A DNA stretch of 64,000 nt from Octopus vulgaris (taxonomy: Eukaryota), in assembly GCA_951406725.2 (NCBI GenBank), contig OX597825.1, positions 51,336,001-51,400,000 of the forward strand, in the 5' to 3' direction. The notes under the pieces were generated by a model. It worked only from the letters and a program-made list of their open reading frames with translations, searched no databases and was not told where the DNA came from. Below, piece by piece: positions 597-63,200 of the stretch. Position 1 is the first letter of the stretch. Each line of letters starts with the position of its first letter. The position numbers and the translations under genes are program-made.

Positions 597-655
<59 letters not shown>
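597..655. repeat. (TA)n microsatellite preceded by (TG)/(CG) dinucleotides
   Basis: Read directly from the sequence. Confidence 0.95.
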
Positions 656-657
<2 letters not shown>

Positions 658-759
658 GGAGTAAACACATAAATGTGAAACAAGGTGGAAAAAAGAGTAC
701 TCAAATACCAGTGGTAGAGTAATATGCTTTATTTTAAGTAGCAGAAAATTCAACAAAAT

Positions 760-797
760 CTGTTACTCTGAGTTTCTCGTTGCCGTTCATCAGACAG
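760..797 (-). ncRNA. Minimal type-I hammerhead ribozyme motif (core boxes intact)
   Basis: Minus strand: ctgt-CTGATGA-acggcaacga-GAAAC-tcaga-GTA-acag. Stem I ctgt/acag; weak stem II cg(gcaa)cg with an A.A base; self-complementary stem III ACTC-A-GAGT; GUA cleavage triplet. Confidence 0.65.
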
Positions 798-813
798 TTT
801 TTGCTAGCAAAAA

Positions 814-851
814 CTGTCTGATGAACGGCAACGAGAATCTCAGAGTAACAG
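814..851 (+). ncRNA. Mirror hammerhead motif with mutated core (GAATC instead of GAAAC)
   Basis: ctgt-CTGATGA-acggcaacga-GAATC-tcaga-GTA-acag. Confidence 0.55.
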
Positions 852-883
852 ATTTTGTTGAATTTTCTGCTGCTTAAAATAAA

Positions 884-930
<47 letters not shown>

Positions 931-932
<2 letters not shown>

Positions 933-1817
933 AGGTGCCTTGAATAAACTGTCATCTAAAACAAAAATAACACTGACATCTCAATTTTAACAGGTATATT
1001 TGCCACCAAAATTACAAAAAATATCTCGAAATACTAAAGAGTAAATTTTTTTTTCAAAAACATGGCACTTGGCTTCAACCACGGTCTCAAGACGACTTTG
1101 AAATCTTCTGCAACTCTTCTAGGCGGTCTCCTTGTTGATGTTATTGAATGCTACAATAACCCTTGCCTTCGGTTCATCTTTGGTGTTACAAGGAGTTTTG
1201 CTGGCCTCTCGCTCAACTGCACCCCACACATAATTATGAAGGAGGTTGCAGTCTGGGGAGTTAGGTAACCAGATGTTAGGGGTGATATGGTCGCAGAAAT
1301 GGTTCCACAGCTATGACTGCGTTCTCCTGATTGTGTGTCATTGTGCAGGGTCCTGTTGCCAGATATAGGGTCTTCCAGCAGCCACCCTCTTCACATAGGG
1401 CAGCGCTTCATCTTCCAGGCACTTGGCGTAGGCCTCCGTGTTGAGTTTGAGGCCGTGAGGGAAGATGAATGGAGGCATAACGTCGCCATCACTAGTGATC
1501 ACTCCAAAGACCATGATGTTGACCGGATGCTTGATTTTTATCACTCTCGGTACATGTCCTCAGAATGCTTTGCCCTCAAATTGAAACCCATACACTCTAA
1601 AATGTTTGCATCGGAGCTTCCGGTGCGAATGCCATGCAGTACTGCATGTCATTTCGAAACATTTGGCAGAGTGCATTGAGTCATACCTGCTGTTCTTCTC
1701 AGAGACGTTGCCCAACTGACCCTACTATACTGTGTAGTCGACAAGATCAAAAAGCAAACAAAACACATGCAGGAAATTAAAAATATAAAGTGGCGACAAT
1801 TTACTCAACACACTCTG
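931..1817 (-). mobile_element. Internally deleted Tc1/mariner-superfamily transposon (maT/DD37D-like transposase relic)
   Basis: Imperfect TIRs CAAGGTGCCTTGAATAAACTGTC and GACAATTTACTCAACACACTCTG. Minus-strand peptides IMVFGVITSDG..PFIFPHGLKLN..YIWQQD and IWLPNSPDCNLLHNYVWG. Confidence 0.8.
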
Positions 1818-2571: not shown

Positions 2572-2823
2572 TACACACAAACACACATATACACAGACAT
2601 ATATATATAATATGAGGGTTTAGTTTACTGTTGATCTAAACTAATAGATAAAATGCGTAAGTGCTATAATTGGTCATTCGTTAGGTTTCAAGCTCACGGC
2701 TGAGGCTGGAGCTAGAGACTTGTAGTAGGCTTCCGAGTTAGCAGGTATATATCAAAGGAAAAAGTAATTTAGAATATTTAATTAGAGTAAGGTGAATTGA
2801 AAAAGAGAAGTAAAAGTAATTAA

Positions 2824-2901
2824 TGTCTTACAGTTGTTTCTGGTATATCCCAGGTAATGGCTCAACAACCACATACACTGGGTATTTCATCATCAGAGAC
2901 A
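2824..2901 (-). ncRNA. Type-I hammerhead ribozyme motif, core intact, long stem II
   Basis: Minus strand: tgtct-CTGATGA-tgaaatacccag..ctgggatatacca-GAAAC-aact-GTA-agaca. Perfect 5-bp stem I tgtct/agaca. Confidence 0.75.
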
Positions 2902-3160
2902 AGGTATGTATGCAGGAAAGTTCCAGACAGAGAATTCACAGTAGACAGAAGAATAAAAGAGTAGATAAAAGAATAAATACAGAAGAATAAACTTCATAGT
3001 TCATCTTGTTCCGGAGGGTTTGGAGTAAGTATAATCCCACATAAAACCAGGCAGTAGTTTGAGCGATGCATTCAGATTGAAGTATTTATTCTTCTATCTA
3101 TAATCTTCTATCTACTGTTTAATTCTTCCATATACTGTGAGCTTTCCTGCATACACACCT

Positions 3161-3238
3161 TGTCTCTGATGACGGAATAGCCAGTGTACGAGAGCGTTGA
3201 CTCATTACCTGGGATATCTCAGAAAGAGCTATAAGACA
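3161..3238 (+). ncRNA. Degenerate mirror hammerhead motif
   Basis: tgtct-CTGATGA-cggaatagccag..ctgggatatctca-GAAAG-agct-ATA-agaca. Two stem III/cleavage-site substitutions; palindromic AGCT loop retained. Confidence 0.6.
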
Positions 3239-3514
3239 TTGATTACTTCTACTAAGCCTGGCTCGCTGAACATTCGTAAAGAAATATGTACATAATGTGT
3301 CCTCTTAAGCGCTACCTCCTACAAAATTGGGACTCTACGTCCGCTGATTAAGCTCGTAAGTGACCTTACAAAATAGATCCCCACTTCCAATTAATTGATG
3401 GTTCAGTGTAGACAACCCGTCCTCATTGTTTTTCTCTGATAGCTGTTTCACCAATTGACCTTAGCATTTCTTCGCCTCCCCGCGAAGGGAAGAGTTAATG
3501 TTATCCTTGTATGG

Positions 3515-14691: not shown

Positions 14692-17600
14692 TCAGGCCAA
14701 GTCAAAGACTCCACCCTCAGAGTCTGGTGTGGTTGCCAGGTTGTATTCTCTGTTTAATTTTGACATGTGTAGGAGCGAGTTTGAGTCAGTTTGTGCTCGT
14801 TGTGTATATCCTGGGAGATGGGGCTCATCTCTAATGGTGCTTAAGTATCTATCCAGCTGCAATTTGAATGATTCCACACTGCATCCTGATAGATTTCTGA
14901 CATGTACCGGAATGGAGTTGAATAGTTGTGCTCCTCGAACCAACAGACTTGATTATCGCAGGGTTTTTGCTGCCTGGCCAGCCTTTTTGTTGATTGGTGG
15001 TAGCTGGCAGCGTCTTCCGTGGCGGAGTGAGTGGTAGGTTTTGATACCAAAGTTTGGCACCTTTTGCTCTATCATTTTCCAAATGTATATAATTCGGTAT
15101 CGCTCAAATCTTCTTTCTATTGAGTACATCCTCAAGGTTTTGAGTCTTTGCCAATAGTCCAGGTCCCTCGTTTCTGAGAAATATGAGGTAACATTTCTTT
15201 GGAGCGATTCCATCTTAGATAGTTGGCCCTTTGTTGTTGGTGACCACAACTGAGAACAGTAGTCAATCCTTGGAAGTATCATACTGTTCCAGAGGGTTTT
15301 CATTGTTGAGGTATCTCTTGATTTGAAGGTGCGCAAGATCCACCCGCTGTACTTTCTTGCAGTAAGACAGACTGAGTCAAGGTGTTCTCTGAATTTTAGG
15401 TTGGTTCCCATGTGGATGCCTAAATCTTTCACATACTGTTTTTCCATTATTTGTTGTCCTGGTGGGTTTCTGTAGTTTGTTGTATTTTTCAGATCTTGAT
15501 CAGTTCCGTAGCGAATTAGTTCAAAGTTCTTATCATTGAACAACATGTTGTTTGTTTCCTGCCATTTATATATGGTGGTCAGGTCCTTTTGTAAGGCCTC
15601 TGTATCCACCTCGTCTTTGATTTGTCTCATGACCCTGGTGTCATCAGCAAAGGATGAGACATTGCTGGTTGTATCTTCATCTATGTCAGAGATGAGGATG
15701 AGAAACAGGATTGGGCCGAGTACTGTACCCTGAGGAACACTGCTGGTCACAGGTGATGGTGTTGAATGGGTTCCATTCACAGTGACTGTTTGAGTTCTAT
15801 TTGTAAGGAACTCATGTATCCATGTACCAACTTTTCCTCCTACTCCTAGCTTTCGAAGTTTGTGACCCAGGATGCCATGATCTACCTTGTCAAATGCCTT
15901 GGCAAAGTCGAGGTAAATAACATCTGTGTTGTATCCATTCTCTAGATTTTCTAGGATTTGGTCATGGTGTGCCAGTAGTTGGGAAAGACATGATCTACCT
16001 AACCTGAATCCATGCTGGTTGCAATTCATCAGATTGTTGGATTCCAGGAACTCAACCAGTTTTCCACGAACTATTCTTTCGAAGACCTTGATAATGTGTG
16101 ATGTCAGTGAGATTGGTCGGTAGTTCTTTGGTTTTGATTTGCTGTCCCCTTTATGTATTGGAGTTATGTGTGCTTCTTTATATGTATTTGGTATTTTGCC
16201 ATTCTCCATAGATTCCCTCCATATCATGTAAAGGGGTTTCAACAATTGTACCTTGCAGTTTTTAAGTATCATGGCATTGAAACCGTCAGGCCCCGCAGCC
16301 GAGTGCATGGAGAGCTTGTCTATGGCTCTTTCTATGTCCTCTGGGTTGAAATCAATGTCGGATAGGGTAGGTTTAGTATGGTCGATATCCTTGAAGAATT
16401 TTCCTGGGTCATGGATCTTCATGGTTTTAGATGGCTCACTGAAGACACTTTCATACTGTTGACCCAACATTTCTGCCATTTCAAAAGGGTTATTCACTAC
16501 ATCCCCATTTTGTCTCTGGAGAGGTCCTATTGTTGACTTGGTATTCGAGTATTTCTTTGCAAAACTGTAGAAACATTTTGGATTTTTCTTGATGTTTTCT
16601 ATGGCTCTCTTTTCTGCATTGTTACGTTCTTCATCATAGTGTTGTTTTAGATTGTCTTCTAATCTGTATATTTGGTCAAGGACTTTCTGTAATTCATGTT
16701 TTGATGTCAGCTTAGATGTTTTGTTTCTTAGTCTTGACCTTTTGCGCATCAGGATCTTTCGCTCCCGTGGTACAGGTTTTTTTGTGGACTTGGTTTTCTT
16801 TAGAGGAATATTTTCTGCACATATTTCTTCGATCTTGTTTAAGAATTTCTTGTGTTTATCTGGCCCAGTAAGGTAGAGATCCCAGTCAATGATTTGTAAC
16901 TGGTTGTTAATAGTTTCCCAATTTGCCTGGTGATAATCATACCTGCATAGCTTTGGCATATCCTTTTGTTTAAGAGTTGTGACATTGGGCTCATTACCAA
17001 TGTGTAAATGCATTTCAATAATATTGTGGTCTGAAAGGATTGTTGGGGTTGAGTGAAGGTCAAATAGCGTGTCCTCGTTGTTGGTGAAAACCAAGTCGAT
17101 CGTATTATTATTTCTTGTTGCTTCTGTCATCATTTGTTTGAGGTATAATTTCTCTGTGACTTCCAACAGTTTGGCTGCCAGTATTTGTTCAGCTTTTGTC
17201 CCCAGTTTTAGTATGTGTCCATGTGGCCAGATGATGTTAGGGAAGTTGAAGTCACCAAGGAGGATAATGTCTGGCATTGGACTCGCCATGTTTCCCAGAA
17301 TTTGTTGGAGCTTTGTTAGTGGTTCAGTGAAGGATAATGTTGGGCTGTTTGGCGGTCTGTACATTATTGTTACAACTGTATTAAGTTGGATGATTTTTAT
17401 GCACAGCAGGTTGCAGTAGCCATTTGATTCATTGACAAGTTCTATGCATGCATAGGTATCATGGATATACATGATAACGCCCCCATGGGATCTACCTTGT
17501 CTATCACATCTGAAGATGTTGAATCTATTGATTGTGATTTCGCTGTTGCGGATGTTTTCGTTGAGATGACTTTCAGTAATTCCAATTATTTTGGAGTTGT

Positions 17601-17904
17601 TTTCTGTTGCTAATTCTTCCAAGAGAGGGACTTTACACTGTTTTGTTTTCGGATAAAGACCCTGGATATTTGCTGTTATTATGCTTGTTGTACCGGATAC
17701 ATCTGCCCTATTGTTGGCAAGACTGTTGTAGTTGCTGGGACTGTGCTGACTGGATATTCGGTCTGCTGGGCTGTCTGTATTTGTTGTATGTGCCCTGTAA
17801 GCCCAGGTGTCAGCCTTTGTATCAATGTTGCCTGGTTTTGCTGAGTCGTCTGTATGGAGTACAGCTGTTGTTGTAGTTGGTAGATTATGCCTAAAAAACT
17901 GCTT
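14692..17904 (-). CDS. LINE ORF2: APE endonuclease plus reverse transcriptase, interrupted by one premature TAA at 14955-14953
   Basis: APE motifs ANIQGL, ITESHL, YRPP, GDFN, IDLVF, SDH. RT motifs YRPISLTS, QHGFR, YLDFAKAFDKVDH, VPQGTVLGP, FADD, KDLG. The 889-aa and 83-aa track ORFs share one frame (TLR*SSLLVRGAQLFN). The frame is open upstream to a TGA at 17907-17905 with no ATG before the APE domain. Confidence 0.92.
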
Positions 17905-36814: not shown

Positions 36815-37995
36815 ATTACATCCAACACCTCCACCATTCTCCGTCTAGCAAGTGCTTTGCGTCCACCGGGGAAATTTACCAATAGATGTCTGGGTCGCTG
36901 TGGAAATGAGAATGTGCCCTAATTTCGCCAACCTATTTGGTGGTCATATTGAGGCCTTAGTATTTTCCCAGTTTTCCGAACCGACACTAGAGCTATACGG
37001 CCGCTATATAGATGACTGTATAGGCGCTACCTCCCTCTTCCGCGAGCAACACTGTCATTTCATCCCTTTCCTCTCTAACTTTTACTCTTCTCACCAATTT
37101 ACCTCTACCATCTCTAACACCTCGATTCACTTCCTAGATATCTCTCTTACCATTGACCTCCACCTCTCACCAACTCCGCCTTCGTCACATCCCTCTCACA
37201 CCAAACGGGCCATCCCCTATTCCCAGTTCCTCCGCCTCCGACGCTTGTGCAGCCGGGACCAGGATTTCGAGACCCAGCCCCAATACCTTGCCCACCTTTT
37301 CATGCATCGAGGATGCTCTCAACCCTTGTCCAAACCGCCCTTGTCCGCGCTCGTCTAATCAATCGCACCACCTCTCCTTCCTCACACCAATCTCCTAACT
37401 TCACCCTTCCCCTCATTTTCCACCCCTCCACCCTACCCCTTCGTTGGAGGATCCTACAGGCTTTCCGTTGTCTCCAGCTAAACCCCACCACCCACACCAT
37501 TTTCCCTACCCACCCTTGTCCTCCTTTAACTGCGCCCGTAACTGACGCGATCTTCTGATCAGTAGCACCTTCTTTTCTTCCCCCCAGCCCCACCCGGATC
37601 ATTCTCTTGCTCTAGATCCCGCTTCCACACTTGCCCTTTTGTCAACAACACTTCCCGCACTGAATCCAACCAACACACTCTCCACATTAGAAACTCCTTC
37701 TCCTCACCTCTTCAAGCCTTATCTATTGCGTTAGACGTAATATCTGCAATAAACTCTACGTTGGTCAAACGGGCCGCCAGCTGGCCGACCGGTTCACTAA
37801 ACATCTACAAGATGAACATTCCCATCACTTGTCATTTCCGCTTGACCAAACAATCCACCTCTAATATCACAGTTTTTGGCCTCGCCCTGCACCATCGATC
37901 CACAAAAATCTCGACTCCGCCTGGAACAGCTTTACATTTTCAGTCTACAAACACAAACTCCTTCGGACTCAACACAACACCCTCCTCTTAACGAT
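36815..37995 (+). mobile_element. Penelope-like element relic (RT plus GIY-YIG endonuclease), 5'-truncated and frameshifted
   Basis: PNFANLF, YGRYIDDCIGA, FLDI, SHPSHTKRAIPYSQFLRLRRLCS, LPLIFHP, LIYCVR..CNKLYVGQTGRQLADRFTKHL. Confidence 0.92.
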
Positions 37996-59182: not shown

Positions 59183-60236
59183 CAGGAGTTGGACAAAATA
59201 ATGGAAACACCTTCAAATTTCAAACATATTTTAACATAGACTAGCACCGCCTTTAGCAGTAATTACAGTTCGAATTCTATGATGTATGGACTCGTACAAA
59301 GTTTGAATTGTTTCCAAAGGAATTTTTGTCCATTCTTTAGCTAAGACAGTCTCCAGTTCTTGTAGAGATGATGGTGGAGGATATCGACTTCCTACTTGTT
59401 TTTTCTAAAATGCACCACAGATGTTTAATAATATTGAGATCTGGGGACTGTGGTGGCCAAATAAGATGTTCAACTTCACTAGAATGTTCCTTTTGCCATT
59501 CATTACCAACTTTAGCTGTGTGAATTGATACATTATCATCCTGAAAGATTACGTTTCCCCTTGGAAACAGTTTCGCAATCATATGATGAATTTGATCAGA
59601 GAAACTGCTCAAATAGTCTCGACTATTAATTCTGCCACGAAGGGAAACCATTGGGCAGGCGAATTTCCAAGATATAGCCCCTCAGATCATCACAGATCCT
59701 CCTCCATGTTTAACAGTCGGAAGAAGGTAGAGTGGGTCAAATGCTTCTTTTGGCTGTCTTCACACGTATACTCGACCGGTGGTAGGAAATAAAGTAAATG
59801 ATGACTCATCCGAGAAAATAACATTCTTCTACTGCTCCAGGGACTAATTCTATAGGTTTTTACTCCACCGTAAATGCTTTACAACGTTTGTCTTGGAAAG
59901 TAGTAGTTTTCTGATTGCAGTCCTCCCATGAAATTTGTGCAGCTCTCGGTGAACAGTTTATGAGTTCTCGAGGTGGTCATTACGCTAGCGCCTGCCATCG
60001 GAGCACCAACAATTTGACTTCTTTGAAAGTCTGACAGATCTGTCACTTTAATGAATTTCAATTACCTTTTTCTGATGTTATCTGAAGAGAAACAGCAATT
60101 TTAGCAAAACATATTAATCAACACTAATATATAAATCAAAAGACATAAAAATAAACAAGCATTCGATGGTTTTATAAATATTTCAAATTTATGATGCTAT
60201 AATGCTGGGTGTTTCCATTATTTTGCCCAACACCTG
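59183..60236 (-). mobile_element. Tc1 (DD34E-type) transposon, internally deleted, both TIRs present
   Basis: TA-CAGGAGTTGGACAAAATAATGGAAACACC and GGTGTTTCCATTATTTTGCCCAACACCTG-TA. Peptides DLSDFQRSQIVGA, IFSDESSF, FQDDNVSIHTAK, WPPQSPDLNIIKHLW. Confidence 0.93.
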
Positions 60237-62030: not shown

Positions 62031-63200
62031 TTAGATATACTAATTAAAAATAGAAATGGACATATTTTACAAAACCACAGACGCAAAACAATATCCACTT
62101 TTTGAGTTATTCCACCCAAGACACGCTAAAATAAACATCCCCTTCAACCTTGTAAGAAGGATATGTACAATAGTGTCAGAACAAAATACAAGAAGCTTTA
62201 GACCGCAAGAACTCAGAAACACCCTAATTGACAGGCACTACCCAGTTCAACTCATAGAAGATTGAATCAGACGTGCAACACAAATGACATAGAAACCTTA
62301 AGAAAAAAGTTCAACACAGCAACACACCTACCCCGAAAATATTGCCGTATATATCCACATACAACCCCAAAAACAAAGAAGCCTTCACTATCGTCACCCA
62401 GAATTTACCAATGCTACATAAGGACCTCAAATTAAAGGAAATTTTAAACATACATAAAATCATTAAAAGCTACAAACAACAGAACTCACTAAAAAAGATC
62501 CTCACAAAGTCAAACTTATTTTCTAAAATAACAGATGCAAAAGTAAAAAAAAATGTGGTAGACCAAATTGCGCAACATGCCCAAACCTTCTACAAGGATC
62601 AGAATTCTTCTTCAAAGGACAAAAATTCAAAATCAAATCTAATTTTACTTGTGCTTCAGAAAATCTAAGTTATGTCATAAGATGCTCGGGCTGCCACCAA
62701 AACTACATAGGGTCCACGGGATTATCGCTCAGATGCAGAAGCACTCTGCATCGACAACATATTGCATTCCCAGAATACAGAATGATACCCTTTAGTGAAC
62801 ATATTGAGAAACTACTACCACATTTTATAATCTTTCCATTCTATCAATGTGCTATTGGAATACAAACACAAGTTAGATTAAACAAGGAAACCTTCTTCAT
62901 TGAAAAATATCAGCCAAACTTTAACCATTTTTAACATTTTAAATAAGGAAACTCATCTCATTGAAAATATATAAAGGAAAACCTAAACACTTGTAACATT
63001 CTATTCCTTCTAAACTAAATCCTATTTAATTAGTCATTCCCAACATGTTTGATTATCTCCCTTATACCTGGAAAACTTCTTGATTACCTTCTCTTGCCTT
63101 GAACTCCATATTTCAGAACATAGTGAAGGCATGACACGATCTAGGTAAAGAAATTTGAAAAGAAAATACGAAACCGGTTATTTCTCCAAAAACTATGATA
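62031..63200 (+). mobile_element. Penelope-like element, 5'-truncated (RT thumb, GIY-YIG, pseudo-LTR remnant)
   Basis: DIFYKTTDAKQY..HPRHAKINIPFNLVRRICTIVS, PYISTYNP, FTCASENLSYVIRCSGCHQNYIGSTG, KETFFIEKYQPNFN; downstream GAAACCGGTT hammerhead 3' half near 63170. Confidence 0.92.

What the first reader, a model, noticed from the sequence alone, without database searches (positions are those of the whole stretch)
722..889. Loopless 168-bp palindrome built from two back-to-back hammerhead ribozymes
Seen: a near-perfect dyad (3 mismatches, two of them G.U-compatible on the + strand transcript). Each arm reads stem I-CUGAUGA-stem II-GAAAC-self-complementary stem III-GUA-stem I; the minus-arm core is intact and the plus arm has GAAUC. 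Known: Penelope-like elements and retrozymes carry minimal type-I hammerheads whose palindromic stem III lets them cleave as dimers. Inference: this is a tiny non-coding fold-back element derived from a PLE pseudo-LTR. A transcript from either strand holds one sense ribozyme and its own antisense, so it could switch between self-cleavage and an 84-bp dsRNA hairpin (a potential ADAR or Dicer substrate). It lies about 320 nt downstream of the candidate first exon. Caveat: stem II is only 2 bp with a non-canonical A.A base.
Basis: partly seen in the sequence, partly recalled or inferred. Interest (0 to 1): 0.85.

Follow-up and report, generated by a model that had tools for sequence, protein, structure and literature searches.

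The report
Penelope retroelement stub with inverted ribozymes
The palindrome is the leftover end of a very common Penelope-type jumping gene, present as two short head-to-head copies that each carry a hammerhead ribozyme motif; it is likely an ordinary by-product of how these elements insert, repeated many hundreds of times in this genome, rather than an RNA switch.

Summary
The dyad and both hammerhead motifs are real, but the boundaries are wrong. The insertion spans 655-884 inside (TA)n: a 153-bp minus arm with a 72-bp tail, joined at CTAG to an 81-bp tail-less plus arm. Both arms match the pseudo-LTR of a full-length Penelope-like element found elsewhere in the genome, with a 727-aa RT/GIY-YIG ORF bearing Hydra-clade motifs. 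The family is large: 4,960 exact tail matches and 519 similar palindrome centres. Of 91 position-ordered copies, 61 have a tail-less inverted arm with fixed outer ends and 52 different inner junctions. This is the published PLE architecture, arising repeatedly. The switch idea fails on folding: the antisense arm is transcribed first on either strand, and the hairpin (-131 kcal/mol) excludes the ribozyme fold (about -5.6). The plus-arm GAAUC is private decay (9 versus 4,066). One feature I did not find in print: inner ends stop sharply four bases before CTAG's AG (721 versus 71), possibly marking the RNA 5' end. Verdict: new family of a known kind; low interest.

The parts
597..654 (.). (TA)n microsatellite, left side of the insertion target
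   Evidence: sequence; tails are followed by ATATAT in 72 of 91 copies
655..807 (-). tailed arm: 5'-truncated PLE pseudo-LTR plus tail (unit positions -1 to 151)
   Evidence: 0 of 153 mismatches to the 5' pLTR and 1 of 153 to the 3' pLTR of the full-length copy at G000:C1:63,048,405-63,052,002
655..726 (-). 72-bp tail, present on one arm only; in the full-length element it runs to 19 nt before the ORF's first ATG
   Evidence: tail concept in PMC8557442, PMC11167929, PMC3846280
760..797 (-). minimal type-I hammerhead motif, core intact (CUGAUGA at 793-787; predicted cut between 764 and 763); stem I can extend to 805/752
   Evidence: descriptor hit; near-identical to the Hydra-2_aMil HHR row in File S2 of PMC8557442
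804..807 (.). CTAG: self-complementary junction shared by both arms
804..884 (+). inverted, tail-less arm (unit positions -1 to 79)
   Evidence: 1 of 81 mismatches to the 3' pLTR of the full-length copy; outer end fixed in the family
814..851 (+). second hammerhead motif, decayed: A15.1 to U at 838 (GAAUC)
   Evidence: 9 genomic matches with GAATC against 4,066 with GAAAC
885..930 (.). (TA)n microsatellite, right side of the insertion target
   Evidence: sequence

Best explanation
The feature is a 230-bp insertion in a (TA)n tract made of two head-to-head, 5'-truncated copies of the pseudo-LTR of a young, high-copy Penelope-like retroelement with Hydra-clade motifs, and it is likely a dead-on-arrival by-product of the element's reverse transcription. 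Shown: identity to the pLTR of an ORF-intact element; (TA)n targeting; one arm with tail and one without; fixed outer ends and variable inner ends; both arms of a copy share the same subfamily haplotype. Inferred mechanism (about 0.6): the element's RT/GIY-YIG protein cuts both strands of (TA)n and primes two cDNAs at two fixed internal RNA sites (unit 79/80 and 151), as shown in vitro for the anole PAc element. Each cDNA runs toward the RNA 5' end, and the two are joined at their inner ends by microhomology, here CTAG. Inferred more weakly (about 0.4): the pile-up of inner ends at -4 to 0 is run-off at the 5' end of an RNA starting at the A of CCATTCT. The hammerhead is the parent element's cis motif, predicted to cut as a dimer in element RNA. 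In this palindromic copy it is predicted to be silenced by its own antisense arm, and the copies are decaying.
For: Full-length parent: pLTR, 727-aa ORF, 3'UTR, pLTR with tail, plus a 2.1-kb inverted arm. 150 of 150 scored matches to the ORF's C-terminal 213 aa are 99-100% identical, and 24 of them lie in 727-aa open frames. 4,960 exact tail matches, control 0. In 91 position-ordered copies, 61 have an adjacent tail-less inverted arm; its outer end aligns to 84 in 53 of 61 (79 plus target ATAT) and to 78-83 in 7 more. 52 distinct junctions of 61. Arms are concordant at diagnostic sites: 32/33, 35/37, 46/49 and 53/54. The tail-less arm reaches further 5' in 26 of 61 and the tailed arm in 12 of 61, so neither is a plain fold-back copy of the other. 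Only 2 of 91 tailed and 0 of 61 inverted arms end at the ribozyme cut site. 45 of 78 related elements carry a sense-strand type-I HHR, 0 antisense, 0 in two controls. The same architecture is described in PMC8557442, PMC3846280, PMC2377424; opposite-strand HHR pairs 100-700 bp apart in PMC4209133.
Against: The short form is the commonest product (56 of 61 inverted-arm copies are 250 bp or less), and one exact junction recurs (6 of 61; 519 genome-wide for two centre variants), as a replicating short family would also give. The simple promoter model predicts that full-length copies also start at -4, but 0 of 14 that reach that point do, against 20 of 41 at the first pLTR (Fisher p=8e-4; two of the 14 are halves of one insertion). 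Pfam and PDB gave no significant match for the ORF; clade assignment rests on motifs and by-eye comparison with published alignments, with no tree. The linker reads CxFx5C, not CxCx5C, in 20 of 20 young copies. Central deletions after insertion could mimic independent inner ends.
Confidence: 0.88

Rival explanations
1. One reading: a dedicated non-coding fold-back element whose transcript switches between hammerhead self-cleavage and a dsRNA hairpin.
For: The minus-arm core is intact; the ribozyme motif is real and under constraint in the parent family; the hairpin is very stable.
Against: The antisense arm precedes the sense ribozyme on both strands (sequence geometry). Stem I probability is about 1e-45, with -5.6 against -147/-139 kcal/mol. 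The plus arm has A15.1U; changes at 15.1/16.1 cost at least 10-fold per PMC3088659. Min-HHRs are inactive as monomers and weak as dimers per PMC4209133. Arm mismatches in 50 palindromes fall in the core as readily as elsewhere (15 of 61 at 12 of 76 positions). No host exon is shown.
Confidence: 0.03
2. A non-autonomous short family (MITE- or SINE-like) with a fixed CTAG centre that is itself transcribed and re-mobilised in trans by the PLE protein.
For: 519 near-identical centres; about 1,400 short two-ribozyme palindromes extrapolated from 25 of 91 times 4,960; non-autonomous pLTR-derived elements are known (retrozymes).
Against: Most junctions are unique (52 of 61). CTAG-centred copies span at least five haplotypes with matching arms, and arm mismatches are mostly singletons. 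The asymmetric centre variant occurs in both orientations relative to the tail (16 versus 8). Both outer ends are precise, whereas copying a palindromic transcript should truncate one outer end (inference).
Confidence: 0.07
3. Same identity, different chemistry: one cDNA folds back at CTAG or another microhomology and copies itself (self-priming, as proposed in PMC3846280), and later central deletions reshape the junction.
For: The self-complementary CTAG sits at the commonest junction; arms share haplotypes; PMC3846280 argues for self-priming from junction palindromes; ATAT at 81-84 offers microhomology to (TA)n.
Against: In 26 of 61 copies the tail-less arm holds 5' sequence that the tailed arm lacks, while only the tailed arm has the tail. 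Copies with no inverted arm also end at -4, 0 and 0. PAc cuts and extends both strands in vitro.
Confidence: 0.3

Closest known systems
Hydra clade of C-terminal EN+ Penelope-like elements (Craig et al. 2021, PMC8557442), e.g. Hydra-2_Amil and Hydra-1_Obim
   Same: Single ORF of about 700 aa with RWK, DKT, YRDD, C-terminal GIY-YIG-like region, CxxC and CxH; (TA)n target; HHR in pLTR. Hydra-2_aMil HHR has the same stem I, core, stem III arms and cut site.
   Different: Not Hydra-1_Obim: its HHR differs, and three exact HHR words of this family are absent from the supplement. Unit is 3,352 bp (they report generally under 3 kb). Linker is CxFx5C. Stem II is 2 bp with A.A at its base. Copy number is in the thousands.
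PLE inverted-pLTR insertions with a one-sided tail (D. virilis Penelope, A. vaga Pen2a/Pen3a, Naiads)
   Same: Head-to-head inverted 5'-truncated copy, palindrome at the junction, tail on one end only.
   Different: Here both copies are cut down to the pLTR alone, the tail is 72 bp rather than 30-40, and inner ends pile up at one base.
Opposite-strand dual min-HHRs of Schistosoma PLEs (Cervera and de la Pena 2014, PMC4209133)
   Same: Two minimal HHRs close together on opposite strands, attributed to truncated PLEs.
   Different: Theirs lie about 100-700 bp apart; here the cores are about 24 bp apart and form a loopless palindrome.
Non-LTR retrozymes (PMC7229834; bioRxiv 10.64898/2026.07.22.740005)
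   Same: Short, non-coding, type-I HHR, related to PLE pLTRs.
   Different: Retrozymes are head-to-tail tandem repeats with same-strand HHRs and circular RNAs; this is head-to-head with one HHR per strand.

Membership tests
Penelope-like elements (EN+) | pLTR identical to the terminal repeats of an element with one RT + GIY-YIG ORF | tested here: met
   YRDD at 360 and a GVVY...YTG motif at 596. Pfam gave no hit on this ORF; homolog P0002 hits GIY-YIG at E 1e-5
Penelope-like elements (EN+) | partial tandem and inverted 5'-truncated arrangement, tail at one end | tested here: met
Hydra clade | RWK motif and DKT in place of DKG | tested here: met
   RWK at 53, DKT at 129; criteria from PMC8557442 section 11
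Hydra clade | CxxC and CxH around the conserved E and N of the endonuclease | tested here: met
   CRLC at 683, CRH at 711
Hydra clade | CxCX5C linker | tested here: not met
   CNFKNESSC in 20 of 20 young copies, which were selected for identity to the query; a CxCx4-6C pattern is present in 115 of 120 homologs. A one-residue lineage change; I therefore call the family Hydra-like by motifs
Hydra clade | (TA)n insertion preference and HHR in the pLTR | tested here: met
Hydra clade | phylogenetic placement with reference Hydra RTs | not testable with these tools
   reference proteins were visible only as supplement text; compared by eye only
Minimal type-I hammerhead ribozyme | CUGANGA / GAAA / UH core, stem I, palindromic stem III | tested here: met
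   minus arm meets all; predicted dimer pairs through stem III; plus arm fails at A15.1
Minimal type-I hammerhead ribozyme | base pair at 10.1-11.1 (usually G-C) | tested here: not met
   A.A here; some older copies have A-U or A.G; many related elements have U.U; natural U.U cases are noted in PMC3088659
Minimal type-I hammerhead ribozyme | self-cleavage after GUA | not testable with these tools
   needs an in vitro assay
Non-LTR retrozymes | head-to-tail tandem units with same-strand HHRs | tested here: not met
   one head-to-head pair only
MITE / fold-back element | uniform structure with TIRs at both termini, propagated as a unit | tested here: not met
   termini differ (tail on one side); 52 junctions of 61; several haplotypes

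The most novel reading that the evidence does not exclude
Most new insertions of this family are abortive double-primed products: the PLE protein primes twice near the 5' end of its own RNA and both cDNAs run off at the transcription start, seeding the genome with over a thousand ~80-bp perfect palindromes. They would record the start site and both priming sites in vivo at base resolution, and when transcribed they would yield dsRNA aimed at the element's ribozyme region, a built-in brake on amplification. Long copies would come from a different template (circular or read-through RNA), since they do not stop at that base.
Probability: 0.3. Interest if true: 0.55.

Novelty: new member of a known kind. 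Interest (0 to 1): 0.25.

Why it matters
As a single locus it matters little: it is one decayed copy among thousands. The family is a useful natural data set for an open question, how PLEs make inverted repeats and one-sided tails. Thousands of young copies fix two priming sites, a sharp inner stop and an absence of ends at the ribozyme cut site, and ORF-intact copies exist for biochemistry. The palindromes could also contribute to dsRNA and A-to-I editing load, which is untested here.

Tried and rejected
Rfam scan of 400-1200: no hammerhead family among 74 matches at E<=10. Pfam and PDB sequence searches of the parent ORF: 0 families at E<=1 and 6 non-significant chains. Apparent arm asymmetry at unit 67 (A in tailed arms, G in inverted arms among the 30 loci) was a search artefact: G in 74 of 74 and 61 of 61 arms of the position-ordered sample. 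My first HHR scanner took only the first parse and missed the window's own motif (12 of 78); the corrected one is. One search was uninformative because the query was the C-terminal part of the ORF; redone on 20 of the 24 loci with 727-aa frames. Ribozyme cleavage as the cause of the 5' ends: rejected (2 of 152 arm ends at 41-45). A G before the -4 A (41 of the 100 listed rows, counted by eye) could suggest cap copying but is explained by the inverted arm's sequence; not claimed. TTCCATTCTAG also looks like a splice acceptor (PMC4209133 notes an intron end at helix I in D. virilis); no spliced joint appeared, which cannot exclude it. Sequencing runs: no RNA holder on record, contigs only; four runs laid cover the pLTR and ORF start but cannot show expression, starts or editing. 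Earlier scan findings: three look-ups returned nothing. No structure prediction, covariance model or tree was run.

Full report
Observation. The dyad is centred between 805 and 806 and has three mismatches over 722-889. The minus arm carries a complete minimal type-I hammerhead: stem I CTGT/ACAG, CTGATGA, a 2-bp stem II with a GCAA loop and A.A at its base, GAAA, the self-complementary ACTCAGAGT and GTA. It is the only hit of my descriptor in the window, with none in 20 shuffles. The plus arm has GAATC. Rfam has no hammerhead match here. The minus arm continues to 655 and the plus arm stops at 884; both ends abut (TA)n. Below, unit position 1 is the A of CTAG read along either arm.

Parent element. 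A search of the own genome (2.8 Gb, 227 contigs) gave 68 matches among 40 of 127 candidates scored. One copy continues past the tail into a 727-aa ORF. It lies at G000:C1:63,048,405-63,052,002 (minus strand) as pLTR, ORF, 3'UTR, pLTR plus tail, period 3,352 bp, with a 2.1-kb inverted copy at its 5' side. The window's tailed arm differs from its pLTRs at 0 and 1 of 153 bases, the inverted arm at 2 and 1 of 81. The ORF has RWK, DKT, YRDD, a GVVY...YTG motif, CxxC and CxH, which PMC8557442 section 11 lists for the Hydra clade; the linker reads CxFx5C instead of CxCx5C. Pfam and PDB did not recognise it. 1,765 of 8,000 scored candidates are homologs at E<=0.001. By eye it aligns with the Hydra blocks in that paper's supplement but is not Hydra-1_Obim. 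All 150 scored matches to its C-terminal 213 aa are 99-100% identical and 24 lie in 727-aa frames, so the family is young.

Family anatomy. The exact 34-nt tail end occurs 4,960 times (control 0) and the palindromic centre, in two variants, 519 times. I took the first 91 tail matches on contig C1 in position order. 61 have an adjacent inverted arm without tail, 23 have no inverted arm detected, and 7 have other arrangements or arms too long for the stretch fetched. The inverted arm's outer end aligns to position 84 in 53 of 61; position 80 is T in 52 of 55, so the element ends at 79 and the rest is target. Inner ends vary: 52 distinct junctions among 61, the window's own type in 6. Total lengths run from 114 to 1,338 bp in this sample and to kilobases elsewhere. 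The two arms of a copy share subfamily-diagnostic bases (32/33, 35/37, 46/49, 53/54). In 50 of the 519 CTAG-centred copies there are at least five haplotypes and 61 arm mismatches in 3,408 positions, mostly singletons, many at CpG, with no sparing of the ribozyme core. This points to repeated origin followed by decay.

Is the ribozyme real? In the parent family, likely yes. Six sites in positions 3-53 have a minor letter in at least three arms of both sets. Five fall on positions the fold leaves free (N7, the GNRA loop N, 11.1, the stem III axis, the stem I mismatch) and one is U4C; p=3e-4 with my post-hoc choice of 9 free positions of 51. U4C is a weaker but viable natural variant per PMC3088659. 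Among 78 related loci from metagenomes, 45 have a sense-strand type-I motif with palindromic stem III, 0 have one antisense, and both controls give 0; because the descriptor demands pairing, the controls carry the evidence. Many have a U.U mismatch where this one has A.A. The published Hydra-2_aMil motif has the same stem I, core and stem III arms. Two minus arms are predicted to pair through stem III (-24.0 kcal/mol for the dimer, -7.4 for the duplex). GAAUC occurs 9 times against 4,066 for GAAAC: private decay.

Can it switch? Each strand holds one sense ribozyme, always downstream of its antisense. The full transcripts fold at -147 and -139 kcal/mol against -5.6 for the ribozyme fold; stem I probability is about 1e-45. 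Published min-HHRs were inactive as monomers and weak as dimers (PMC4209133), and the PAc ribozyme needed protein and was dispensable for insertion in vitro (PMC11167929). The supposed first exon lies in sequence with 39 other genomic matches at 64-81%. A dsRNA substrate is possible if the locus is transcribed; no usable RNA data were available.

Mechanism. PAc cuts and extends both strands and starts reverse transcription at two internal RNA sites that bracket the tail. Two fixed outer ends and two variable inner ends fit two primings joined in the middle. In 26 of 61 copies the tail-less arm reaches further 5', in 12 the tailed arm, and in 23 they are within 5 nt, which argues against a plain fold-back, though later central deletions could blur this; PMC3846280 favours self-priming. 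Ends avoid the cut site (2 of 152) and pile up at -5 to 0 (47 of 152). Genome-wide, 721 arms stop matching at -4 and 71 at -5, while 1,883 run through to -9 (some of the 721 may be subfamily variants). The A at -4 sits in CCATTCT, which fits the initiator consensus YYANWYY (recalled), with a CCAAT about 80 nt upstream. Against a simple promoter model, 0 of 14 full-length copies that reach the upstream pLTR stop there, against 20 of 41 at the first pLTR (p=8e-4). The stop therefore is not a barrier met on every pass; long copies may come from read-through or circular RNA (inference).

Prior art and novelty. Inverted 5'-truncated copies with a one-sided tail (PMC8557442, PMC2377424), head-to-head junction palindromes (PMC3846280) and opposite-strand HHR pairs from truncated PLEs (PMC4209133) are published. 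I did not find this family, or a sharp inner stop of this kind, in nine searches; the library lacks most subscription papers and Repbase. Papers seen: PMC8557442 passages, section 11 and supplement look-ups; PMC11167929 and PMC4209133 parts 1-2 of 4; bioRxiv 10.64898/2026.07.22.740005 part 1 of 5 and passages (its supplements are closed); PMC2377424, PMC3088659, PMC7229834, PMC3846280 and PMC8969392 passages only. Verdict: a new family of a known kind; interest 0.25.

Noticed in passing
window 2809-2923 (-) and 3139-3253 (+): A second, older head-to-head pair (83% complementary, 215 nt apart) carrying a different hammerhead-like motif with a long stem II (TGTCT-CTGATGA...GAAA-CAACTG-TA-AGACA); both arms look decayed. 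Probably another PLE family's inverted pLTRs.
   Followed up: partly
window 931-1700 (-): Fragments that resemble a Tc1/mariner transposase by eye begin right after the right-hand (TA)n; no Pfam hit at E<=0.01 for two short frames.
   Followed up: partly
window 14956-17904 (-): 983-aa open frame with endonuclease and RVT_1 domains: a LINE ORF.
   Followed up: partly
window 36849-37861 (+) and 62044-62931 (+): Fragments resembling other PLE ORFs; 37691-37861 hits GIY-YIG at E 7e-5, the other three frames tested gave no Pfam hit.
   Followed up: partly
window 59340-59681 (-): DDE_3 transposase fragment (E 3e-10).
   Followed up: no
   Followed up: partly
older copies, e.g. L007, L009, L015, L023: An older subfamily has CCGAUGA or CCGACGA (U4C) in the core in about a third of arms (17 of 55 tailed, 18 of 45 inverted) yet amplified widely.
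   Followed up: partly
L031:7559-9742 and L035-L054: The linker's second cysteine is phenylalanine in 20 of 20 young copies examined, yet (TA)n targeting persists; relevant to the proposal that this linker guides microsatellite targeting.
   Followed up: partly
L160-L237: 42 distinct type-I hammerhead motifs from related elements in metagenome contigs, many with a U.U mismatch at the base of stem II.
   Followed up: partly
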